A DNA stretch of 64,000 nucleotides. Source: Callorhinchus milii. Lineage: Eukaryota. The notes under the pieces were generated by a model. That model was given only the letters and a program-made list of their open reading frames with translations, was not told the DNA's origin and searched no databases. The translations under genes and the position numbers were made by a program. Where the stretch lies: positions 13,144,001 to 13,208,000 of the forward strand of contig NW_024704751.1 of assembly GCF_018977255.1 (NCBI RefSeq), read 5' to 3'. Of the stretch, positions 5,770 to 63,841 are shown piece by piece. Position 1 is the first letter of the stretch, and every line of letters starts with the position of its first letter.

Positions 5770-6208
5770 NNNNNNNNNNNNNNNNNNNNNNNNNNNNNNN
5801 NNNNNNNNNNNNNNNNNNNNNNNNNNNNNNNNNNNNNNNNNNNNNNNNNNNNNNNNNNNNNNNNNNNNNNNNNNNNNNNNNNNNNNNNNNNNNNNNNNNN
5901 NNNNNNNNNNNNNNNNNNNNNNNNNNNNNNNNNNNNNNNNNNNNNNNNNNNNNNNNNNNNNNNNNNNNNNNNNNNNNNNNNNNNNNNNNNNNNNNNNNNN
6001 NNNNNNNNNNNNNNNNNNNNNNNNNNNNNNNNNNNNNNNNNNNNNNNNNNNNNNNNNNNNNNNNNNNNNNNNNNNNNNNNNNNNNNNNNNNNNNNNNNNN
6101 NNNNNNNNNNNNNNNNNNNNNNNNNNNNNNNNNNNNNNNNNNNNNNNNNNNNNNNNNNNNNNNNNNNNNNNNNNNNNNNNNNNNNNNNNNNNNNNNNNNN
6201 NNNNNNNN
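5770..6208. other. Assembly gap
   Basis: Run of N. Confidence 1.
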
Positions 6209-7330: not shown

Positions 7331-8630
7331 CTCACACACACACATAGATACTCTCACACACACACACACACATAGATACTCACACACACATAGATACTCA
7401 CACACACGCAGACAGACACATAGATACTCACACACAGACACACACACGTAGATACTCACACACACACANNNNNNNNNNNNNNNNNNNNNNNNNNNNNNNN
7501 NNNNNNNNNNNNNNNNNNNNNNNNNNNNNNNNNNNNNNNNNNNNNNNNNNNNNNNNNNNNNNNNNNNNNNNNNNNNNNNNNNNNNNNNNNNNNNNNNNNN
7601 NNNNNNNNNNNNNNNNNNNNNNNNNNNNNNNNNNNNNNNNNNNNNNNNNNNNNNNNNNNNNNNNNNNNNNNNNNNNNNNNNNNNNNNNNNNNNNNNNNNN
7701 NNNNNNNNNNNNNNNNNNNNNNNNTCACCTCCTCCTGAAGTCACCAACACATGTAGAGAAGCTGCAGCCCCTGAGGGCAGAGCCTCCCACACACACTGAC
7801 ATGTCAGAGGGATTTCCAGCCTCACTGTGTTGGCTGCAGTGTCTGTGCACTGACTGTCACAGAGCACTTCCCCACAACACAAAGCTCAACAGCGCACAAT
7901 ACAGAGAGGACACAGTGAGCACAACCACAGAGGGCTTCAGGGAACCGACTCCACAGAGAAGAAACACCACCGACCTGTGTAATGGCTTAATCTCCCGGTG
8001 CGGTCCTGTGTGTAGTGACTGTGAGGGCTTTGGCTCTCTTATACTGTTCAATGCATAAATACAACTGTGTTGGAATGTAAATACTGATGTCACTGAGGTT
8101 GTGACGTGTTGTTTCCAGTGATACCAATGTGGTTTGGTTTCTGTATCACAAATGGACTGATCCATCAAACACTTCCGATCAAAGAGCGAATGAGCAGAAA
8201 CGTTTCGTTTCCCCACATCCGCCCCCGATTTAACACAACCTCTGCGACTGAGACCGCAAATTGCGCGTTGGATACTTGATTTAAACGAACACGAATCTTG
8301 AGTGTGAATCTTGAGAGTCTGGAACTGGAAACACGAGTGGAAATCCTATAATTGGTAGAACAGTTCGGATAAGTGCGGTGGCCCCATGGTCCCGCTCTCC
8401 CCATCACCACCTCTGTCTGTCCAGCGCCTCGGGACGTCTTCCCGACGTGAAAGGCACTGTACAAAGGTGCTGTTGTTGCTGTTGTTGTTGACTCACTTGA
8501 TCTTTCTGCGACAATAAATGTCTTTACTGAAAAATCACACAGTATTGTTTGTTCGTAACACCAACAGCAGCAAATGACACTTGTATAGCAGCCTCTCACC
8601 GCAACTCAAACACGACTGCTTTTAAATATG
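6209..8630 (+). repeat. Near-identical tandem duplication: 6209-~7120 and 7725-~8630 (offset 1516 bp), separated by CA satellite and a gap
   Basis: Both units begin TCACCTCCTCCTGAAGTCACC and differ by only a few substitutions. Confidence 0.95.
7142..7468. repeat. Compound (CA)n microsatellite (gap 7469-7724 follows)
   Basis: Direct reading. Confidence 0.95.
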
Positions 8631-10039
8631 TTTAATTATTAATTATTATTTGTGACCTCCCCTACTTCCCCATGAATACGTTGTCACTTCAATCCGCGAC
8701 TGTTTATGGGTCACTGCTGTGCGCAATTGGCTGCCCCATTTCACCCACAAGGTATACAGTCACTTCATTTTACAGTATATCCTGTGAAGCGCTTTGAAAC
8801 GCCTCAAAGATGTAATTAGGCCCAATATCAAATGCAAGGATTATTATTATTACTCGCTATGGTTTCAGCCACTTCACCGCGAACGCCCAAAACTCCTTGC
8901 CTGAATCCCTCCGCCCTGCTCCCTCTTTACCCATTTTCAAATCGCAGCTGAAGTCTTTCCTCTTCGCCCGTGTCCACAATAGCCGCTGTTTCTTTTCGCA
9001 GCTCAGCTTCAAACTCTGCTATTGCTCAACTCTTTGACACTACCCTGCATAAAGGGCACCGGATGTGGTTATTGTATTGGTGCATCCTAAAGCATTTTCC
9101 TGAGTTTACTTTTTCAATCCCATGGAAAGTATTATATACTGTAGCTCTATAAAGTCACCTCCAGGCAGTCTCCTCTCAAGACTGAAAAGCCCTCGCCAGT
9201 CTAATTGTCGCTCATTCCTCTAGGACACAAAATAGCTTGCAACAGAAATGGCTCATTTGTGCCGTCTTTTGAGTACTGCAGCTTTGCAACTTAAAACAAA
9301 ATTAGTTGAGGCAATCTATGCTTCAGTGCCGATGAAAGGAAAACTTAAATATTTGGAAAAAAATCTGAATTTTTTTACATTTATTTTATTTAAAGTGAAG
9401 GAGGTGGATTGCTGCCGTAAACAGTTTTTAGTGTATTTTTTTAAAAAAATGCCTTGCCTTTCCCTCCCCTTCCCACAGGCTTTACAACTGGAGGACATAT
9501 CCAGCCTCAACTTTAAACGGGCCAATGGGCGAGGACGAAAACAGATTACAAATGCCTGCCTGCCTTCTGAGACAATAACAAGAAGGGAGAAGCCATTTTG
9601 TACGGCTGCGTGGAAGCAAAACAGAAGACAGCAACAGCAGAGCAGCAAACAGCACCGACCCGGAGATGGAGAGAAACCCACCCGCTGACAGACGCAAAAC
9701 AGAGCGAGAGAGAGAGACACGCGGCACACGCACAACACAACACGACACACAACACACGCGCGAAGAGAGACTTTGCTGATCGTTGTAGAGTTTCGCTCCA
9801 CAAGAATATATACACAGTCATTCGCTTTTAAAGTGTGTAGCGTGGGGAGCGCTTTGAGACGTCTCGGAAGACGCGACGAGGCCCTGTATGAAATGCAAGG
9901 ATTGTTACAGGCTTCTCATCATCATCATCATTATATTATATTATATTACATTATTATTGATTATTATTGTAAAGAGTCAGAGTTGCCTTTGTTTAAAGCC
10001 CAGACTCGCACAGTCTGATTGACATTTGCAGGTGATTGA

Positions 10040-10350
10040 CAGCCAGGGGGCGGGGCCGGGACCACCGCCTGACGCGATTGGTCGAGGGCCGAGTGGGCGG
10101 GGCGGAGGTGGGGGGGCGGGCGGGGGGTTGCGTAACGGGAGCCTGTGATTGGCTGGGCGGCGGGCGGAGCGAGATCTGATTGGCCGGGCCGGGGGGGGGG
10201 GGAGGGCGGAGTCTGCTAACGATCGCGGGATCCCATTGGCTGCGGGCGAGGCGGGGGGGGGGGTGGGCGGAGCTAAGGCGAGGGAGGGCGGGGCCGAGGT
10301 GCAGTTGGCAACATTGTTGCCCCAGGAACTGGTTACTTTGTCGCCGCCGC
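10040..10350 (+). promoter_or_regulatory. CpG-island promoter of PNRC2
   Basis: Four inverted CCAAT boxes (ATTGG at ~10077, 10148, 10179, 10235), several GGGCGG boxes, high CpG; candidate first donor TCG|GTGAGC at 10695. Confidence 0.75.
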
Positions 10351-10389
10351 CCATCTGCTCTCAGACTGTTCACCCCCTCAACCATCTCA

Positions 10390-11290
10390 GGACCTCCTTC
10401 CCCTCCTCCTCCTTCCTCCTTCCTCCGTCTTCATCATCACCCCCTCCCCCCCCCCCCCATCTTTTTTCTCCCCCCCCCACCCTTTAAAATATACATTACA
10501 GTCTTTATTTTTTTCTCCTTTTCCCCCCTTCCTCCTCCCACCCTTTTTTTTTATTACCCCCCCTCTCCCCCCCCCCCAACCCCTCTTTTTTTTTCGCTGG
10601 ACAATCGACGGGTTGTGTTTTTTTTTACCCCCCCCCCACCCCACCCCATCATCACCCCACCACCCCCACCCTGAGAGAGAGAGAGAGAGAGTCGGTGAGC
10701 AGGACATGTTAGATGTTTGTCTCTCTCTGTGTGTGTGTGTCTTTCTCCCTCTCGGCGCCATGTTCGATGGCGTCTCTCTTTCTTTCTTTCTCTCTCTCTC
10801 TCTCTCTCTTCTTTGTTCGGTCGCCACTTCCCGAACGCTTTCGTTCTTGTTTTTCTCTTCCATTTCCTCCCTCCCTCCCCCCCCCCTCTCTTTCTCTCTG
10901 GGTTTTTTTTCTCTCTCTCTTTCTCTCTCCAAATTTTCTTTCTCTTTTTATTTCTCTCCTTCCCTGTTTCCCCCCTCCCCCCACTCTCTCTTTATCTTTT
11001 GAATCTCTCGCCCCCCCCCTCCCCCCTCTCCTTTTTTTTCTCTTCATTTCTCTGCTGTTTTTCTTTCGTTTTCTCTCTCTGTTTTCTCTCGTCTCAGTTT
11101 TTCTTCCCCAATGTCCTCTTTCTCTATTTTTTCTCTTCACTTCCCTGTCCCCCCTCCCCCCCCCTCCCCCCCCATACACTTTCTCTCTCTTCCTGTTCCT
11201 AGGGTTCAACCTCTCAGCCCCCCCCCCCACAGTTTTTGCCTGTTGCTTTGTGTGTGTGTGGGGGGGGGTTGGGGGGGGGACAAGCTATTT
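10390..11290. repeat. Low-complexity C/T-rich tract
   Basis: poly-C, (CT)n and poly-T runs. Confidence 0.9.
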
Positions 11291-11637
11291 GCATTGCACA
11301 AACCCTGTTTTTCTAAAAAAAAATCCACCACCAATGTTTGTTAAAGGCACTTTGAGACGTCTCGAAGACGCAATAAGGCTCTATGTCAAATGCAAGGATT
11401 ATTATTATTATTTATTATTATTAAATGCCCCCCCCACCCCCCCACCCTCGGTCCACGGTTCTCAAAATAAAACATTTGCATCTTTTAATTCCTCCCTCCC
11501 CGAGCCGTCAACGAGCACAATTTCGTGGGGAAATTTGACTTAAGGGCATTTTTTAAAATCTTTTCTTTATTGTGATCTCTCCTCTCTCTCCTCCCCCCCC
11601 CCCAAGGCACTGGAAGTGACTGTGGCTTGTGTGACCC

Positions 11638-12814
11638 ATGTTGTGCTCGGCCACGCGCTTACTTGCCACACTTCAGCTCATGCAAATTCCGAGTCGGGAA
11701 AAGTCATCAGAGACGACTGGAACTGGAGGATCTCCAAAAGTCTGGAATCGAAGTTCACTGGAAGCTTTGGATAAGGAGAAGGCTGACGATTTTAGGGATC
11801 TTTCAACGAAAAGGTACAGTAATGCGAATTTAAAATAAGGAACTCCACGTCAAATAATTGCACAAATTTAAATGGCACTAAACAGTTCTTATAATAATAA
11901 TAATCCATGATTTGATATTATAGCATCTTATCAATATAATGAATACATTAATATATTAAAGTAAATTTACTGATTTTAAAAACTTTTAGTATATCTTTTG
12001 TAAATAGAATTTTTTTTTGCATTGTTCAGGAATGCCTTTAATTCTTTTTGCCTAGTTGATAATAAATAATAACAATCATCCTTGCATTTGAATGTAGTGC
12101 CTGATCACGTTGTTGAGACATCTCAAAGAACTTCACAGAATATACTGTAAAGTGGATTGACTGTAATATTTTGTGGACGAAATGCAGTTTGTAAATGAGT
12201 CCAGTCTGGTCTGTGCTGAGTCGGTTTATCTCATCCGGGACATGGTATATACGGTGGCCCCAACACCAATATGGTTTCTGCTATTGATTGTTCTCTACTG
12301 ATCACCATTTGAAAAGCCAATGTGTGCTGGATAAGAAAGAAGCGTACACATAGTTACAGAGCTTTCGGATATTTTGTCTGAAAGTGCTCCAAGACTTGCG
12401 TATAAATGCAAAGTTGTTCTTGTTTGTTCAGAATATATGCAAATTAAATAAGGGGAGGGAGGCTTGATGTCACAGCTGCACACATTTTTAAAAGTCTCTA
12501 AATAGTTGTACTCACAAAATATGCAGTCAGATAGTTTTGCCCACAAAATATATAGTCCATTCACCTTACAATATATTCCTGTGAAGCGCTTTAAGACGTC
12601 TCAACGACGTGATCAGGCGCTATATCAAATGCAAGAATTATTATTATTGTAAATTTACTTCAGTGAACTAAGCTTAAGTACAGTGGAACTGTATGAGTGA
12701 ATGGCTTCAGAATAAAGGGAAAATATTGTGGATCGATTGAATTGAGTAAAACAGTGTAGGTAAGTCTGGTGCGTTGGGATTTACTTTTTTTGTTCGTTTA
12801 ATTTGCACAGGTGA
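11638..12814 (+). CDS. Spliced upstream ORF (59 codons) in the PNRC2 5' leader
   Basis: Leader exon 11607-11813 (AAG acceptor, AAG|GTACAG donor). ATG at 11638 stays open to the donor; splicing to 12811 gives AG|G TGA TAG. Confidence 0.55.
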
Positions 12815-12837
12815 TAGTTTCTTTTTAGGCAAAGAAA

Positions 12838-13281
12838 ATGGGAGGTGTTGAGAGATTAAACATTCCGATATCCCAGCCAAGCCATGGCACTGAGAAGAGA
12901 AACCAGCACTTAAGCGGCAGTAGCCGACAGAGAGGCAAAGACGAGAACCTTTACCACGTAAAAGCAACGCACAAGAAAGGCGAGAAGGGTCATGGCAGAT
13001 ACCCACTGATCTCCGAGACACGGCGGGCCGTGCAGAAGGAAGGGAAGAATATTATGCGCTTTGCTACTTACAATCAGAATTGGGAAGTGGCTCTGAGCAG
13101 CTCGAATACACTGTTTGCATCGCAGTCTGATCAAAATTATGCCGGAGCCAAGTTTAGTGAGCCGCCATCACCAAGTGTACTCCCCAAACCTCCAAGCCAT
13201 TGGGTGCATGTTCCCTTGGAGCCTTCTGATCACAGGGAAATGGCCTTTCAGTTGAAGACCTTGCTTAAAGTGCAGGCGTAA
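12838..13281 (+). CDS. PNRC2: Proline-rich nuclear receptor coactivator 2
   Basis: 147 aa single coding exon with YAGAKFSEPPSPSVLPKPPSHWV and C-terminal LKTLLKVQ; adjacent to SRSF10 as in other vertebrates. Confidence 0.96.
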   Translation: MGGVERLNIPISQPSHGTEKRNQHLSGSSRQRGKDENLYHVKATHKKGEKGHGRYPLISETRRAVQKEGKNIMRFATYNQNWEVALSSSNTLFASQSDQNYAGAKFSEPPSPSVLPKPPSHWVHVPLEPSDHREMAFQLKTLLKVQA

Positions 13282-16200
13282 CCTATCTGCGGGTTAAATA
13301 TGTAAGGACCATATATACCAGTGCTGGAAGCTAGCCATTTCCAAATCTATTTTTTAATACAGGAGCCATTGAAACCCTTTTGAGCACTGCCGATCACATA
13401 ATGTTTCCATTCCAAGTTGAATGTCCCATTTGCTGGTTTTAGATTCAGTTTTGTGAAAACTGAGAACGAGTCCATTTTTATATCTGACAACGTCTACCCT
13501 AGTTCTCCCTCATTAAGATTGTAGCCCAGCATCGCTTGGGAGCTTCCATGCTTTGAATGCTGTGCAGTATGCAACAGAGGTTGGCTGGTTGTCGGCTTCC
13601 ACTGCTATCCAAAAAAACACTTGAGACGACCCAAATTGTTTTGGGTGACTTTTTAAATTGAGCAAAAATGTTTTATCTGCAATTCCACCTTTTAACGAAA
13701 GCCGGTTCTCAACCGTTTAAATTTGACGTCAGAATGAACTTGAATTGAATTGGTCCTTCATGTTTAGCTAGCGAGATACGAGTTTACAACAAACATCCAT
13801 CGTATAATAACACCCAGTGTATAAGGTGTTGACTGCACCTTGTCTACCAATGTGAATTGTGTTTCGTGGCCTTTTTGTGTTTCTAAATATTGTTGAGAAA
13901 TGCAGTTTTTTTAAAAAAAAAGTTGCTCACCCACTGTGGCAAGTTAAAATATGCATGTCCAGTTTTATTGACTGAATGCGTACAATTTAGCAGCTTTTAC
14001 TGAGCATTTTATGTTGCCAGTTGGTACAAAGAACCTTCAAAACATACCATTTTAGTACAAGGCTTCATTTTGTTTACATTTTGTTTTCTGTGTTTCTCCT
14101 GTAATGGACGCTTTTCCAAACCAAAACTGCTTTAAAACTGGATGTGCAGATTTTAGTTGATTTATGGTTTTGTCACTTGCCAAAAACTCTTGCGCGGAGG
14201 GAAATGGAATGGGTCGGGTTTTTTTGAGCTTTCATCTGTTGTGTAAAGGTTAAAGCTGGTTCAAACTAATGTGCAGGTTAGAAACTTATGGCCAGTTTCT
14301 ATTTCAAAGACACACACTTACTGTGTAGAAAGAGCCATGTAAATAAGTGTAAAACTTGTAGCATATGTATATTTTAAAGCAGGACTTGCCTGCTGGATAA
14401 AGTATTTTAGTACAATAGCTAAATGTATAAACTGTGCCGGGTATTTTTTTGGCATGACGACAAAAAACCTAAGAATATTTTTGTTTTTTTTTAAAAAAAG
14501 GCAAAGCTTAACTGAAATGGATGATTTATTAAAAGAAAAATATTTCATGATGCTACATGCACTGTTTGTGCCCAGTGAGCTCGCATTGTGTTTTCAGATT
14601 AATAACTGGTTTAAATTGTCTTTGATGCAGGGATGAAAACAGACTGCAAGTTAAGAGAGTGGTGTTTTTTTTAAATATTTTTTTCAAACAAAAAAAGACA
14701 AAAAAAATTGAATATTGAGGCTGCTGCTTATCCTGTAATCCCCTTTTTTATTTTCAATGGATGGAAACAAGGTTTGATTGACACATAAAATTGATTGAAT
14801 ATAAATTTTCCAAATTGCTTATTTTGTGATGCTGGCCTTCGGAGGACTCAAACTTGTCCAGAGCTCTTCCCCCCCCCCCCCAAAAGATGATCAAATTAGG
14901 CTTTAGACTAGTAACAACTCTGCTGATGTCCTATTACATTTGTGTAATCTGTTTTTGATAGGCATCTGTGTATAGTGTGAGGTTCAATATCATTGTAGTG
15001 GGCTGGTCAGTTGCTGATTACTTGTCTTGCCTTCCTTCTGTTTCTCTCTTACCAATTTCCCCCAATACCAAGCTAAAGACTTATCTACGGTGTAAATAAC
15101 TACACCCCAGGAGGCCATTATTTGGCTCCATTTTTCCAAACGTCAAACTTTGCGTCTGCCCAGGGCTAAGTGTTTCCAAGCCACCTTCCCAATTCTAACC
15201 TTGTGAAAGAACAGGATTACATTCAAACAAATTGTAGTTAATGCACTCTCCCCAAGTATGAATGAATACCTTCACTGAATTCAGCAGCCTCCCTTACCCA
15301 ATAATGTGGTCTCACTGATCTTTCCCTAGTAATAATTGGGAGACCAGTTTAATGATTGGCATCTATACCAAAATAAATTTACAGTAATACATACCTCCCT
15401 TAGAAGTCCTATCGAATCAGGTAATTCTGTGGGTCTAGTAATAGGATCCATGTCATTGGCTATATTTTTTTAAATTGAAACGAGTACCTTCACTATGTTA
15501 TAACACAATGTTGTGTTTTGAATACCCAGATGATGTGAATTGACTTAACTAAAAAAAATTGTGCTTCACAAAGCAGTGTTACAAATTGGATTGAACAACA
15601 ATGAATAAAATTGATTTTTCCCCCTTCCTCAGATTGTTTGTTTACCTTTACATTTCTAGGGTCCAGGTATGAAAGCGGTGATCTTTGGCTTATTTGCTTT
15701 AAAGATGGGAACAATATGGTGCTTACACAGCCAGGACTGCCTTGGATTTTCTTTGCAGCACTGAGACCATGTCTACCCTACACATCGTTTTATTGCTGAG
15801 TGACCTTTCCATCTTAGAGCCAAATTCATACACAAAGATGCCCTGGTTATCTACCTCTGCAATGACAGTATTACTGGGATCCTGGCCAATAATCTCCCAA
15901 CTAAAATTGGACATTCACATGAGTAATGTACCATCGTATTACAATACAGTCTTTACTCTTCTCAATTTCAATGAGGTTTAGTTTACAGCTTCAAAAAACA
16001 TTCATAAATCTCCATTCTCAAGAAGCAATATTCCTTACATTTCACATGGTGCCTTATCACAGCTTAAAAGATGGCTCAATAATTTTTTAACAGGCATTAA
16101 AACATATGGCTGTGTAGTAAAATACTAATTTTAAAGTTATGGAAGAATATTTGATAACTTAATTGTGCATTAAAATTCCAGATGATAAAACAACTTGATG

Positions 16201-18243
16201 CTATTTCTCTGGGGATCAGCTATCTGACAAGTGCAGGTTTTGAACCCTTGCTAAGGGGATAGGATGTAACAGGAATTTAGCAAAAATGTGAGAGCATTGC
16301 CACCACCCCCTACCCATTAAGCAGTGATCCTAATTGAGAATTTTAAGGCTTAAGAAAACAGATCTTGAGTATGCATCATCATATAGCACAGATTTATTTA
16401 CAAGTCTGAAGTTACAGTCAGCTGTCAATCAACAAAAAGGGAGAGCACAACATCTATCCACATCTGACCCAAAACACTTAAGTTTTCACAATTTCAAAAG
16501 ACATACAATTGGAAGTCTCATAATTAGCACGTTTAAACCAGTGCAAAGGCTGTGAAAATAATGCTCATTCTGCACTGCATATCTTTTCAGTGAATTCTCG
16601 AGGGTATGAAAAGTGTAGCTGGGTACTGATTGACCTTTCTTGAGCTCTTGTAGATGGCTTGAATTGAAAGTAGATTTTTTTTAAAATCTCGAGTAGAGTC
16701 AATGAAAGCAAAGTGGGCAAAAGAACCAAGAAAGCATGAACCTAGCTGGTTTAGACGCATCATACTAGAGGTAAAACTCAAAATATGTAGGTCTGTAGAA
16801 CAATAAGAGAAGCACGCAAACAAGTCACCTTAAAAAAATAAAGTGATCCAATCACAATGTGATCTGGAAATTATTAGTCATTTCCAAGGAAGTAATATAC
16901 TTAAGTCAGTTTCACTCCTTTGTAGCAGATTTATCCTACTTCAATATTAGGTGAATAGGTACATTTGATTTCAATAGGCCCAATTACTATTTAGAATATA
17001 CTACTGTTAATTGTTTTGGAATGCAGTACAAAACAACAAAGACCAGAATGGTCAATACTTGATTTCAAATATCACAGTTTTTCTACATTCATGCAAAAAA
17101 CCTAAGGAACTCAGTATTGTAAAGCTTAAACTGAAAACATTTTTTTACTGTATATGAAATTTTACAAACAGCTTTTATTAAAAAGACTTGGTATAAAAAT
17201 CCCTTTTTTTTTTACAAGCTTCTACACGAAAGAAAGTAAGTTTGATCACAACACTTTTCCAACTCCCTTGACAAAATGTCCAATCCCCCCCTCCCCCCCC
17301 CCCCCCCCGATACAAGTTCCTGCATTGGTCTTACAATAAAACTGAAGACATTGCTTATCTAACAGATTAGCAAATGGTATCTTTACAGCTAAGAATGAAA
17401 AGAAGCATTCATGCAAAGTACACAAATCAATATTACAGGAGGCATGCCAGACCACTGCATCGCATAAATGGATGTAGTAACAGAATATAAGGTTGAGGGC
17501 AGCAAATTGCCAGTCACAGTCAATACTTTTGATTGTGCTTAAGGTGACTATTTCAATAAAGCGTGCGGAATTTCTACAAATTCATTCCCCGCATTGTATG
17601 GTTTCTCAATACGTTTAAATAGGATGAAAGAAATTTCAGACAGCCATTTCAAAGATGGCATTTGGGAAAAGAATACTGTTAACCAGGTTATTGAATATAG
17701 TAGCACTGCACCGATGATCTGTTCTTTGTTAAATGTTACCTTTTTAAATTCTGAATTCATACAGTTTCCATTTATTGCTCCAATAGCTTTATTAATCCAC
17801 CAGAATGTTAATATAAACTGCATTTAAACTCTGGGAAAAGAATATGGATATAAGGGACACACAACTAGTAATGGGGCACTGCTTTATAAAAATTACCAAC
17901 AGGAAGGAACACTGTCTTCAATCAAAATGGGTTTTAAATTTGCCCTGAAACTTAAAAGCAAACCGGTTAACCCAATGAATAAATGAGTGAACATGTTAAT
18001 GTTTTGAGGCCTATCATTTTATTAACTGTTCAGTCATAGTCACAACAGTTACTGCATTGTTTAGAATAAAATCATGGCTAAAATCTTTGAAACACCATCA
18101 AAACATATCAGTCCTGCATGTCAAGGTTGTTCTATAAAGAGTAATTTAGAATAAAACCAGTACCCACTTAACATTCTCTACAAGAACTAAACAAAAAGAA
18201 AAAGCATGTATGGAAGCCGCGAGTTGGTGCCCACTTCTTGCTT

Positions 18244-30867
<12,624 letters not shown>

Positions 30868-31190
30868 GATGGCGGCGGCGGAGGGCGGGCGGGCGGACGA
30901 CCGGGCGAGAAAAAGGCGGGCAAAGACGGCGCAGACGGACAGCGGCGCGCCTGCGCAGGCCTGCGGGCACCCCGCGAGCCGGAAACGCGTCACAATGGGG
31001 GGCGGAGACGGCCAATCGGGGCGCGCGGTGCGGCCCCAGGCCCCGCCCTCTCCCCCGGACACAAACACGCGGCCATCTTGTTGCCGGGGGGGAGGGGCCC
31101 CGGTTGCTAAGCTGCCATTTTGGAGCGAGTGAGCGAGAGCGAGAAAGCGCGAGAGAGAAAGGCGACTGCCCTCAGAGTGGGGGCGGAGAG
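30868..31190 (-). promoter_or_regulatory. CpG-island promoter / 5' leader of SRSF10
   Basis: YY1-type GGCCATCTTG (~31071) and GCCATTTT (~31114), NRF1-like GCGCCTGCGC (~30947), CCGGAA, CCAAT (~31012), GC boxes. Confidence 0.75.
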
Positions 31191-31232
31191 ATAGTGAGAC
31201 ACAGGAGATAAGTGGGGGTAAAGGGGGAGGAG

Positions 31233-34535: not shown

Positions 34536-35844
34536 TACCAAATTCCTGGACTGTAAATTGCGTGAATCGCGTAAATCTAGACTCAGATGGGATTTAGTCC
34601 CAATCTTTAGCTGATTCGTACAATCAGTAATTCATAATCCATTGTTCTACATTTCAGAAGTGTGAGATTCCAAACAAATTAACTTGTTGATTCTAAAGAA
34701 ACAACAACAAACATATCAAACATAATATATAGCTGTGTAACCATCTGAAACTATCACAAAGAAATAGTTCTGCCATCACTGGACAGGTCCACCTACATTC
34801 TTACATCAGAATAAACTGGTTCAACTGCAAGGTACAAATAGCAAAGCTTTTGGATTTCAGCCTCAGTCTTACCTCATACACAGAACATTTCACACAGTAT
34901 TTTTGTGTCCGGCATCTTTCACGGTAAGAAGAACAAATAGGTTTTATAGTAAAAAATTAAGAGGATTTATTTTTGTTATAGGTTGCCTTTTACAGTTGGA
35001 GATTAAACTGTTGACTGCAAGAAAAGTTTTCCAGTTTCATCCTAAATCATTTCTAAGAAGTTAATTTGACTTTGTGCCTTATCCTGTTGTCGAAAAGTCT
35101 CAAAACACTCCATAGGATTTACTGAGACTGAACGTATTTGTAGGCTAATTTGTCTGTGAACATGGGAAAGAAATTTTAAACAAATTTTCAAAGTGTATTG
35201 ATCGGATACAGATAAGAATAGGTGAAAAGACCAAATCTTACCTGCTCGATCAATACATAAGTAAATAATACGTTTATTTAAATAATGCATTTAAATAATA
35301 CATAAATTTAAGTTCACAGACAAATTTGCCACATATTGCAACGTGTTTTAAACTCAGTTGTACAAATTTACAGAAATGGCAAAATCAAACTGTATTTTAA
35401 ACTTGCTGTGATGGCATTCAATCTGTTAGATGTTATCATGTGTATGGATTTGAGCTCATAGTCTGGCTAGCACTTTGGTGCTTTTGGAGGTTCTGACCTT
35501 CAGATGAGATGTTAAACCCAGGTCTTGTCTGCCTGTTCAGGTAGATGTTAAAAATCGCATGGCACTATTCAATAACAGAAGGAAGTTTCTCCTGACGTGA
35601 AAGACGCGATATTAAATGTAAAGATTATTATTCTTATACAGTTATAAGGACTCTGTTATAAAGACCACTTGAGCGAGGTACAGTCCCAGAGAAACTGAAC
35701 TCCAGAGGTAAAAGGACAATAATGAAGTGTAAAAGTAGGAGACTCCTCACAAATCCAAGGAGTCAAACACATTCCAAGCTTCTTAGATTCCAAGCTACTG
35801 TGAAATAACAAACTGGTGTTTGCTTCGCTTTAGGTTGACTAGCA

Positions 35845-36606
35845 ATGAATTGGGATCTCCTCCATTCCCTGCTGAGCGGGGTGAACAAGTATTCTACGTC
35901 CCTGGGGAAAGTGTGGCTTTCGGTCATCTTTCTCTTCCGTCTCCTGGTCTTGGTAGTGGCGGCCGAGAGCGTGTGGGGAGACGAGCAGAGTGACTTTATT
36001 TGCAACACGCAGCAGCCCGGTTGCAGGAACGTGTGCTATGACCGCTTCTTCCCCATCTCCCAAATCAGGCTGTGGGTCTTCCAGCTCCTGTCCGTGTCTG
36101 CTCCGTCTTTCCTCATCGGCATGCACATTGCCCAGAGGAGGAAAAGGGGGAAGGACAACATCAAGATCTTTGACGAGAACAAACAGCACAAAATAAAAAT
36201 CGACCGTGCCCTTCTCAGGACCTACTTGATGAGTATTGTCTTCAAAATATTATTCGAAGTTGGCTTCATGTACTTGTTCTATTGGCTCTACGAGGGTTAT
36301 AGGATGCTCAGGTTGGTGAAATGCACAGAGTATCCCTGTCCTAACATCGTTGACTGCTTCATTTCCAGGCCAACTGAGAAGACAATCTTTACTGTTTTCA
36401 TGCTATCAGCTTCTGGTGTGTGCGTCGTGCTCAATGTGGCCGAACTGTGCTACTTGGTCATAAAGTACTGCATCATGCAATGGAAGCAGAACTGGATATC
36501 GATAGTGCAAACCAATGAACAAGCTAATATAAGCCAGGCTGACAGCAATGGTTCAAAGCTTGATGATGACCTACATTGCCGCATACATCTTAAAACCGAG
36601 ACATGA
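35845..36606 (+). CDS. Beta-type connexin (gap junction protein), 253 aa
   Basis: [17 protein letters not shown]; E1 C-X6-C-X3-C ([12 protein letters not shown]); E2 C-X4-C-X5-C ([12 protein letters not shown]); SRPTEKTIF; single coding exon with an acceptor 11 nt before the ATG. Confidence 0.96.
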
Positions 36607-39014: not shown

Positions 39015-40753
39015 TTACATTCGACGGCTTTTCCTGATCATGGTGGCCTTTCCTGCAGTAAGTTTCTGTTAAAAAAGGTTAAGCACAAAGTGGTTTCAGT
39101 GCCATGCACATTGCCATTCCAATTTACAACAGATACAAGCCTGCCCTGAGCACGAAGGTGACGGTACAGCCAGTCTGGCTCATTGACCTGGAAGGGCAGA
39201 CCAGTCACTGGGCGCAGGCAGGGAATCAACCCACTCAGCTCCTGCTAATCCAGCAGGTCAAAGCCCTAACGAGTAGCGTGATCCTTGCTGGACGAGCAGC
39301 GGGAAAAGTTGTATTTGTGACACTTAAGTCCTTCACTGACATTGGAAAGTGGCTTATTATCTGCATTGATCAAGAGGACTTTTCAGCCACTCTATTGTCT
39401 TCTACTCACTTCAATCATTTCATTTCCCTGGACCTCCTGAATGTGGGTGAAGCTTTTCAATTTGCACACAAGCTTCCCGTCCTCCAGTTGAACAGTGCAC
39501 TGAATGAAAGGAAAGCTCATCAAAGAAATCTAGTCATACATACAATATATATTTAAACGTGAGGACAGTCAATGGATGGCGAGCATGTGGAACAACTGAG
39601 GTGTGTAGGGGAGGGAGCAGCAGCAACATGTGTTACCTAGAGTAGTAATGGCATAGAAACAGGCCATTCGGCCCAACGGAATAAAACTCGCAGTCGCAAC
39701 ACTGTACACAGTATATCCTGTGAAGTGCTTTGGGACATCCTCCCAACGTGAAAGGCGCTATCCCAATGTAAGGATTATTATGATTGATACTATGTTAGCT
39801 GTGTACTTGGCTGACTCTAAATTCCATTTTCCAGTCTAAAAATGCGCCAAATGTCCTCGGTCTTCCTACCAGTTAAATTGGTTTGCCATAGTCCGGTGCA
39901 TTTGTTCTGATTTAAGCTTGTTTGCCACACAGAGCATTATGGAAAATATCGCATGGCAACTCAACAGGGGAATAGGGTGGGGTGGGGGCTTAGGTGCAGC
40001 ATAAACACTGGCACGGACGAGTTGGGATGGTGGGTTGTGTTTCTGTGGCCTTAGGGGATAAATAAAGAGGGCAACACGTACCTTCAGTTTTTTACCATCC
40101 ATGGAGGTGATTTCCGCCTCTTTCCCCACGGTGAACTCATTTGTCACTGTCTGCTGTGAGGTTTTGACTACGATGACAAAGTGTTCTCCAGTTTGTTTGA
40201 TGTCAATGACTGGTTTGATGTCCTTCCCAATCTTAATTACTTCTTCTGGAAGGGCTGTAAGATTTAGCATCAAGTCAATGCTGCAGACATTGGTTAATAG
40301 TGGAGTCGTACAATGTTTTGGTTGGAGCGCTCCCCTCACAAGTGAGAGGACCCAAGTTTGATTCCCAGGCTTACTCCACATGCCTCTTTTTACCTAGCAA
40401 TTATATAATAATAATAATAATCCTTGCATTTGATAATAAGTAGGAACCCGGTTGTTAGTCGATTGGAAGATCACTTTTTGGGGATAATAATCCATTCAAA
40501 AAAATAAAGTAAAACAAAATAATTTGGTCACTCAATCCACGACTATTTATGGGACACTGTTCGCAATTCACTGTCACATTTCTTGCACAAAATATAGTCA
40601 ATTCACTTTACAGTATATCCTGTGAAGTGCTTTGAGCTATCTCAATGATGTGATAGGGCACTGTATCAAATGAAGAAACAACTTACAGAGAGCTCTTAGA
40701 AAATCCTCAATGTTCTCCTGTGAATAGACTTGCCATGTCCCAGAGAATGCCAT
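39015..40753 (-). CDS. fabp10: Liver basic fatty acid / bile acid-binding protein, 126 aa
   Basis: Exons 40753-40687, 40254-40082, 39499-39410, 39065-39015: [56 protein letters not shown]. Canonical 4-exon FABP structure; AATAAA at 38981-38976. Confidence 0.93.

Positions 40754-45461: not shown

Positions 45462-63841
<18,380 letters not shown>

What the first reader, a model, noticed from the sequence alone, without database searches (positions are those of the whole stretch)
11638..12859. Spliced 59-codon uORF in the PNRC2 leader, with a possible splice-controlled switch to an overlapping uORF
Seen: a 207-nt leader exon is almost filled by one ORF (MLCSATRLLATLQLMQIPSREKSS..ALDKEKADDFRDLSTKR) that ends in a double stop directly after the junction, 23 nt before the PNRC2 ATG. 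A second good acceptor (TTTCTTTTTAG at 12828) would skip those stops and extend it (RQRKWEVLRD*) out of frame across the PNRC2 start. Established: PNRC2 links UPF1 to decapping. Inference: a candidate microprotein or bicistronic mRNA, and translational or NMD feedback on a decay factor.
Basis: partly seen in the sequence, partly recalled or inferred. Interest (0 to 1): 0.75.

Follow-up and report, generated by a model that had tools for sequence, protein, structure and literature searches.

The report
Known PNRC2 upstream ORF, fish copy
This cartilaginous fish has a 59-codon reading frame spliced in front of the mRNA-decay gene PNRC2, most likely its copy of an upstream frame already published for human, mouse and zebrafish that probably dampens PNRC2 translation; the proposed splicing switch has no support.

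Summary
Exon 11607-11813 holds a 59-codon ORF that stops just after the junction, 23 nt before the PNRC2 ATG. Contigs of 5 of 6 runs laid join it to acceptor 12811.

It is not new. Mudge et al. 2013 described a 56-aa PNRC2 uORF, with ribosome-profiling support in human and mouse, conserved to zebrafish, and suggested a bicistronic locus. A teleost locus and mammalian and bonefish protein models show the same design: 56-60 codons and in-frame Met at codons 1 and 15. Window, teleost and human also share weak uAUG contexts and an AG|G-TGA stop at the junction.

Peptide identity to bony vertebrates is only 23-26%, and the one codon-level comparison shows no coding signature. A leaky-scanning brake is therefore likelier than a conserved microprotein.

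The 12829 acceptor was not recovered from any run, and its pyrimidine tract is absent from both teleost loci. No junction lies downstream of the stop, so exon-junction-driven NMD feedback is not expected. The scan had not noted this uORF elsewhere.

The parts
10048..10291 (+). Likely promoter region: 4 CCAAT/ATTGG and 10 GGGCGG motifs
   Evidence: Motif counts in 9950-10350; the promoter role is inferred and no transcription start was mapped
10660..10694 (+). 3' end of the likely first leader exon, donor TCG|GTGAGC; its start is unknown; no ATG in 10250-10694
   Evidence: The X2 contig carries a GA-repeat ending AGAGTC before 11606, close to but not identical with the genome; GAGAGAGTCG occurs once on the + strand of the window
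11607..11813 (+). Leader exon 2 (207 nt); its only two ATGs are in one frame
   Evidence: Sequence; covered end to end by X2 and X9 contigs; single match in the own genome
11638..11813 (+). uORF codons 1-58 and the first two bases of codon 59; weak-context ATG (C at -3, T at +4)
11680..11682 (+). Second in-frame ATG, codon 15, weak context (C at -3, C at +4)
   Evidence: Met15 also in P0034, P0123, P0125 and L003
11814..12810 (+). 997-nt GT..AG intron, last intron seen
   Evidence: Joint 11811>12809 (cut +2) in X2, X4, X9; loose ends in X3, X4, X5
12811..12817 (+). Last base of uORF codon 59 and the double stop TGA TAG
   Evidence: the same AG|G TGA junction in teleost locus L003
12818..12828 (+). 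T-rich tract and AG: putative second acceptor, use not shown
   Evidence: Sequence only; 13 of 22 pyrimidines and 2 upstream AGs, against 16 of 22 and 0 for the used acceptor
12838..13281 (+). PNRC2 coding sequence, 147 aa, single exon, strong ATG context (A at -3, G at +4)
   Evidence: Pfam PF15365 PNRC, E 1.6e-6; 79% identical to catshark PNRC2

Best explanation
The window's 59-codon frame is spliced directly in front of PNRC2, is most likely the cartilaginous-fish orthologue of the published PNRC2 uORF, and probably works as a leaky-scanning brake on PNRC2 translation. Shown: exon, junction, two in-frame ATGs (codons 1 and 15) in weak contexts, a stop 1 nt after the junction, and a strong PNRC2 ATG 23 nt further on. 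Inferred: scanning ribosomes that start at either weak AUG translate 45-59 codons and are mostly lost to PNRC2, because reinitiation after a long uORF with a short spacer is poor (textbook, recalled). Ribosomes that leak past both AUGs make PNRC2. Conditions that lower initiation at weak AUGs, such as eIF2 phosphorylation or low eIF5, would raise PNRC2 output. What selection keeps over long times appears to be the start positions, length and stop position more than the peptide. Orthology about 0.9; attenuator as the main role about 0.65.
For: Same architecture in a teleost genomic locus L003: 60 codons, only two exon ATGs, both in frame (codons 1 and 15), donor AG|GTGAGC, stop AG|G TGA. Met1 and Met15 in 4 of 4 peptides compared and in L003; the human leader printed in the supplement of PMC4770231 reads by eye as 56 codons with ATG at codons 1 and 15, ending AGG TGA. 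uAUG contexts are weak in 6 of 6 cases (window 2, L003 2; human 2, by eye). Main ATG is strong in window and L003. Global similarity to the bonefish uORF: 16 of 62 identical, 1 of 5000 shuffles as good; to the cat uORF 18 of 69, 48 of 5000; to L003 14 of 62, 267 of 10000. Codon-position identity window vs L003 is flat in the uORF (0.46/0.44/0.46) but coding-like in PNRC2 (0.67/0.69/0.41). Mouse ribosome profiling: both upstream starts used, CDS poorly translated, ribosome density 1.9-fold up on tunicamycin (PMC5892948 passages). Human PNRC2 was among 17 CPuORFs tested by frameshift and is not among the 8 named as sequence-dependent repressors (PMC7530721).
Against: No translation data exist here for this species. 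Similarity is weak: BLASTP to P0034 E=38, local score reached by 2726 of 10000 shuffles, the truncated P0125 peptide is not significant (2901 of 5000), and a two-sequence MAFFT alignment did not align Met15. The fish uORF starts in P0123 and P0125 were picked by eye from fused gene models. The codon test is one pair of 57 codons. The human uORF passed ESUCA's Ka/Ks<0.5 filter by being a CPuORF; cat and human peptides are 55 of 56 identical by eye; two teleosts share 31 of 61. All three point to peptide-level or nucleotide-level constraint within lineages. Paolini et al. favour reinitiation rather than leaky scanning.
Confidence: 0.65

Rival explanations
1. A genuinely bicistronic mRNA: the uORF makes a stable, functional 56-60-aa microprotein, kept since the jawed-vertebrate ancestor, and any repression of PNRC2 is secondary.
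For: Proposed by Mudge 2013 from conservation to zebrafish. CPuORF status implies Ka/Ks<0.5 in ESUCA. Length 56-60 and 8 invariant columns in a four-way alignment. 31 of 61 identical between two teleosts.
Against: 23-26% identity across the cartilaginous/bony split against 49-53% for PNRC2 in the window pairs, and flat codon positions. Weak start contexts. No Pfam family and no stand-alone homologue in two protein searches, which are weak tests for a 59-aa query. PNRC2 is absent from the main text of a 2026 bicistronic screen and appears in its supplements only in an expression table (one file was cut when stored).
Confidence: 0.25
2. One reading: regulated use of the 12829 acceptor turns the uORF into an overlapping uORF and shuts off PNRC2.
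For: The geometry is as described. Nine pyrimidines followed by AG is uncommon in this window, about 0.011 expected per 27 nt (post hoc). Both teleost loci also have a TAG 12-15 nt before the ATG.
Against: In the narrow lay each of 4 runs gave one contig, all running through 12811-12829, so 12811 is the form these assemblies kept. Two competing AGs lie within 25 nt upstream. No pyrimidine tract precedes the TAG in L002 or L003. Tetrapod models read VTKKLK or VTFKLK here, with no in-frame TAG. If PNRC2 is made by leaky scanning, overlap would change little (inference).
Confidence: 0.06
3. The uORF makes PNRC2 mRNA an NMD target and so gives feedback on a decay factor.
For: uORFs can trigger NMD, and uORF transcripts are enriched among those raised in zebrafish pnrc2 mutants (21.2% vs 15.7%, bioRxiv 2025.05.08.652725 passages). 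Over 3 kb of exon follows the stop, which could allow junction-independent NMD.
Against: No junction lies downstream of the stop in 12811-16000, so the >50-nt rule is not met. None of the passages read names PNRC2 mRNA as an NMD target.
Confidence: 0.12
4. Chance ORF in a leader exon with no function.
For: 4% of exon shuffles give such a frame (122 of 3000); pairwise local similarity is not significant.
Against: Start, second start, length and stop position recur in teleost and mammalian orthologues, and the starts carry ribosome-profiling signal in human and mouse.
Confidence: 0.03

Closest known systems
Human/mouse/zebrafish PNRC2 56-aa uORF (Mudge et al. 2013, PMC3847767, Fig. 5; passages and legend read)
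   Same: Same gene, an upstream leader exon, AUG start, near-equal length; by eye also the codon-15 AUG, the ML-S--R start and the AGG TGA end
   Different: 59 instead of 56 codons, about a quarter of residues identical to the mammalian peptide, 23 instead of 14 nt spacer, double stop and T-rich tract after the junction; no translation data for this species
PNRC2 CPuORF of the ESUCA set (PMC7530721; results section and passages read, supplement too large to read)
   Same: Taken to be the same human uORF (its sequence was not seen); tested in reporters
   Different: No sequence-dependent repression reported for it in HEK293T; whether their taxonomic range already includes cartilaginous fishes is in a figure and supplement I could not see
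Bicistronic uORF microproteins MIURF-MIEF1, PYURF-PIGY, ASDURF-ASNSD1, STREMI-SLC35A4 (named in PMC13303939 passages)
   Same: Long conserved uORF in a spliced leader ahead of an intronless or separate main ORF
   Different: Those have demonstrated protein products; this one has weak deep conservation, no family match and no reported product in the searches made
ATF4-type overlapping-uORF control (described in PMC7530721 introduction; details recalled)
   Same: PNRC2 ribosome density rises with eIF2 phosphorylation in mouse
   Different: No short first uORF and no overlap in the recovered mRNA; two starts share one frame and one stop

Membership tests
PNRC2 uORF of Mudge 2013 | Lies in the leader of a PNRC2 orthologue | tested here: met
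   Pfam PNRC; top hits are shark and ray PNRC2, up to 79%; the PNRC1-like paralogue is on another contig
PNRC2 uORF of Mudge 2013 | AUG-started frame of about 56 codons in the leader exon, spliced to the coding exon and ending before the main ATG | tested here: met
   59 codons; junction in 5 of 6 runs laid
PNRC2 uORF of Mudge 2013 | Sequence similarity to the mammalian and teleost peptide | tested here: met
   Weak: global scores reached by 1 of 5000 (bonefish), 48 of 5000 (cat) and 267 of 10000 (L003) shuffles; not significant for truncated P0125 or by BLASTP
PNRC2 uORF of Mudge 2013 | Initiation shown by ribosome profiling | not testable with these tools
   Published for human and mouse only
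Conserved-peptide uORF (ESUCA definition) | Purifying selection on the peptide (Ka/Ks<0.5) | tested here: inconclusive
   One pair, 57 codons, flat position identity 0.46/0.44/0.46, 5 synonymous-only against 9 identical codons; no Ka/Ks was computed
Conserved-peptide uORF (ESUCA definition) | Not fused to the main ORF | tested here: met
   Offset to the PNRC2 ATG is not a multiple of 3 with any of 4 acceptors
Bicistronic uORF microprotein loci | Stable protein product with its own function | not testable with these tools
   No proteomics available; none reported in the searches
Bicistronic uORF microprotein loci | Recognisable family or database homologue | tested here: not met
   0 Pfam families; 0 hits; 1 unrelated repeat-protein hit; seen only inside fused PNRC2 models
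ATF4-type or splice-made overlapping uORF switch | An mRNA form in which the uORF overlaps the main ATG | tested here: inconclusive
   Only the non-overlapping form recovered; contigs drop rare forms
Exon-junction-dependent NMD target | Junction more than 50 nt downstream of the stop | tested here: not met
   Stop begins 1 nt after the last junction; X4 contig continuous 12809-16000; beyond 16000 not examined

The most novel reading that the evidence does not exclude
The PNRC2 uORF encodes a real microprotein kept since the jawed-vertebrate ancestor, made in a long (Met1) and a short (Met15) form from two conserved weak starts. The same two starts act as a stress-sensitive valve that trades microprotein for PNRC2, coupling initiation stringency to mRNA decapping.
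Probability: 0.2. Interest if true: 0.6.

Novelty: already known. Interest (0 to 1): 0.25.

Why it matters
The element is published, so this is mainly a distant data point. It is useful because a cartilaginous fish shows which features lasted across jawed vertebrates: two weak in-frame starts 14 codons apart, a 56-60-codon length and a stop glued to the last junction, with little of the peptide. That bears on the question left open in 2013, whether PNRC2 is bicistronic or merely uORF-controlled, and names the positions to mutate. I did not find this comparison in the papers listed, but ESUCA's unread supplement may hold it.

Tried and rejected
Protein searches with the 59-aa peptide: no candidate; one hit, a 3234-aa bacterial-type glycine-rich repeat protein, rejected as low-complexity noise; not in the collection by identity; no Pfam family. 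Atlas: no reading for the window peptide, no usable hit for the first 56 residues of P0034. Rfam 9000-20000: 0 matches.

No RNA holder is on record among the 14 listed runs; kinds are guessed. No DNA run was laid. A processed copy as source of the junction is unlikely, since the exon matches once in the own genome and the protein search gives only this locus, a PNRC1-like locus and a weak third match. The 11813>12829 junction was not seen in 6 runs, but contigs show presence only and hid 23 joints and 297 loose ends.

Of 80 metagenome loci I opened 4 (L002, L003, L004, L006); only L003 held the leader exon. Of 11 N-terminally extended PNRC2-like proteins, 3 contained the uORF peptide; the other 8 were left out of the comparison.

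Supplement searches for the human uORF: ESUCA file too large; nothing in PMC10032668 or PMC4383229; only an unrelated zebrafish 20-aa ORF in PMC4568590, with 7 of 16 files unsearched. PNRC2 with PhyloCSF: 0 papers. No PNRC2 mention among the 15 listed cartilaginous-fish papers. PMC5896957 names PNRC2 only in a screen table.

A mitochondrial targeting or membrane role was considered. The first acidic residue lies at 21, 8, 27 and 12 in the four peptides and the best 19-residue hydropathy is 0.91 or lower, so there is no consistent signal. No structure was predicted.

Full report
Observation. The sequence is as described. An exon at 11607-11813 (207 nt) has a C/T-tract acceptor and a GTACAG donor. 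Its ATG at 11638 opens 59 codons when joined to 12811, ending in TGA TAG with 23 nt from the TGA to the PNRC2 ATG at 12838. Joined to 12829 it would open 68 codons across that ATG. The exon has exactly two ATGs, 11638 and 11680 (codon 15), in one frame. The main ORF is PNRC2 (Pfam PF15365; 79% to catshark PNRC2), which places the genome among cartilaginous fishes. An ATG frame this long arises in 122 of 3000 dinucleotide shuffles of the exon, so the frame alone is only mildly unusual.

Is the exon used? Fourteen runs were listed, none on record as RNA, ten guessed to be RNA; six were laid. A 997-nt GT..AG joint from 11813 to 12811 is in contigs of X2, X4 and X9. On a repeat-free stretch around the acceptor, X3, X4 and X5 carry the exon's last letters before 12809, and X1 starts there with nothing attached. 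So 5 of 6 runs, from 3 studies, show the junction. The exon matches once in the genome and no processed PNRC2 copy appeared. One X2 contig carries a GA-repeat before 11606 that resembles the sequence ending at the donor 10694|GTGAGC, the likely first exon. There is no ATG in 10250-10694.

The second acceptor. In one search each run gave one contig and all four run through 12811-12829. No joint or loose end at 12829 was listed in either lay, although hid 23 joints and 297 loose ends and contigs drop rare forms. The used acceptor has 16 of 22 pyrimidines and no upstream AG within 25 nt; the 12828 AG has 13 of 22 and two competing AGs. AGs ending at 12817 and 12834 would also make overlapping frames, so overlap is what any skipped stop gives. 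In favour, nine pyrimidines before an AG is uncommon here (0.011 per 27 nt, post hoc), and both teleost loci have a TAG 12-15 nt before the ATG, but without a pyrimidine tract. Tetrapod models read VTKKLK or VTFKLK in this stretch. I rate a regulated switch at about 0.06.

Conservation. Direct searches with the peptide found no homologue. Searches with PNRC2 returned 11 N-terminally extended models, of which 3 contain the uORF peptide fused to PNRC2: cat P0034, bonefish P0123 and toothfish P0125. A metagenome scan gave teleost locus L003 with the whole structure: a 221-nt exon, two ATGs in frame at codons 1 and 15, 60 codons ending TTKR against STKR here, donor AG|GTGAGC and exon start G TGA. 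The human leader printed in the supplement of PMC4770231 reads by eye as 56 codons with the second ATG at codon 15 and the end AGG TGA, 55 of 56 residues equal to the start of P0034. All six upstream ATG contexts seen lack a purine at -3 and a G at +4, and the main ATG has both in window and L003.

The peptide is poorly kept: 16 of 62 identical to bonefish (1 of 5000 shuffles as good), 18 of 69 to cat (48 of 5000) and 14 of 62 to L003 (267 of 10000). PNRC2 itself shows 86 of 163 and 79 of 160 in the fish pairs. BLASTP to P0034 gives E=38, the truncated P0125 peptide is not significant, and one MAFFT run did not align Met15. Codon-position identity with L003 is flat in the uORF and coding-like in PNRC2, one pair only. 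Within lineages the peptide is better kept: 31 of 61 between two teleosts.

What is in print. Mudge et al. 2013 (PMC3847767; three passages with the Fig. 5 legend) report a 56-aa PNRC2 uORF with initiation seen in human and mouse ribosome profiling, conserved to zebrafish, and suggest the locus may be genuinely bicistronic. Paolini et al. 2018 (PMC5892948; passages) see two upstream starts used in mouse, a poorly translated CDS and 1.9-fold higher ribosome density on tunicamycin; they suggest reinitiation. The ESUCA paper (PMC7530721; results section and passages; supplement unreadable) includes PNRC2 among 17 human CPuORFs tested, and it is not among the 8 with a sequence-dependent effect. 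PMC4770231 (passages, one section, one supplement passage) used the leader among uORF reporters repressed to varying extent by added eIF5; the PNRC2 value is in a figure I could not see. PMC13303939 (passages and supplement search) does not name PNRC2 among bicistronic loci in what was searched. I found no paper on a function of the peptide or on the cartilaginous-fish copy (listings only).

Mechanism. Shown: a spliced leader whose two AUGs are weak, share a frame and stop just past the last junction. Inferred: they capture part of the scanning ribosomes; reinitiation after 45-59 codons with a 23-nt spacer is expected to be poor (recalled), so PNRC2 would come mainly from leaky scanning and would rise when initiation at weak AUGs falls. 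Because the stop lies 1 nt after the last junction seen and an X4 contig is continuous to 16000, the junction-dependent NMD rule (PMC4288159 passage) is not met. Junction-independent NMD from the long downstream exon remains possible and untested. A functional microprotein remains a fair rival (0.25) because of ESUCA's Ka/Ks filter and the conservation within mammals and within teleosts. The roles are not exclusive.

Verdict. A real and correctly read feature, most likely the orthologue of a uORF published in 2013. The new-looking part, the splice switch, lacks support. Interest 0.25.

Noticed in passing
P0034 (NCBI model, 202 aa): A cat PNRC2 model joins the 56-aa uORF in frame to PNRC2 through one extra Phe, as a 4-nt later donor would do (inferred; DNA not seen). 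In the window the next GT is 5 nt on and an in-frame TAG at 12826 would block such a fusion. The fused fish models P0123 and P0125 are probably gene-prediction artefacts.
   Followed up: partly
L083:200-1530 (G000:C3) and window 11800-12840: The PNRC1-like paralogue appears to have an intron at the matching place: K|V in the main frame, exon starting GTGAT as here. Its upstream exon codes in frame, whereas PNRC2's leader exon has stops in that frame and the uORF in another. The leader exon may descend from an ancestral N-terminal coding exon; no similarity was shown.
   Followed up: partly
L084 (G000:C4:62668040-62668180, - strand): A third, weak PNRC-like match, 60% over the C-terminal 47 residues, E 4.6e-6.
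   Followed up: no
window 18244-31200 (-), 35839-36606 (+), 39866-40393 (-), 45462-57173 (-): Neighbouring frames look like SRSF10, a connexin, a fatty-acid-binding protein and a myomesin (names recalled from the translations, no family search). PNRC2-SRSF10-MYOM3 is the human gene order as I recall it.
   Followed up: no
window about 12110-12165, 12534-12650, 11340-11400, 9860-9910: Short interspersed-repeat-like pieces attract very many contigs and spurious joints.
   Followed up: no
window 13736: Contigs of X1, X2 and X4 read T where the window has G in the 3' UTR: a common allele or an assembly error.
   Followed up: no
window 5770-6208 and 7469-7724: Two N stretches upstream of the gene, outside the finding.
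   Followed up: no
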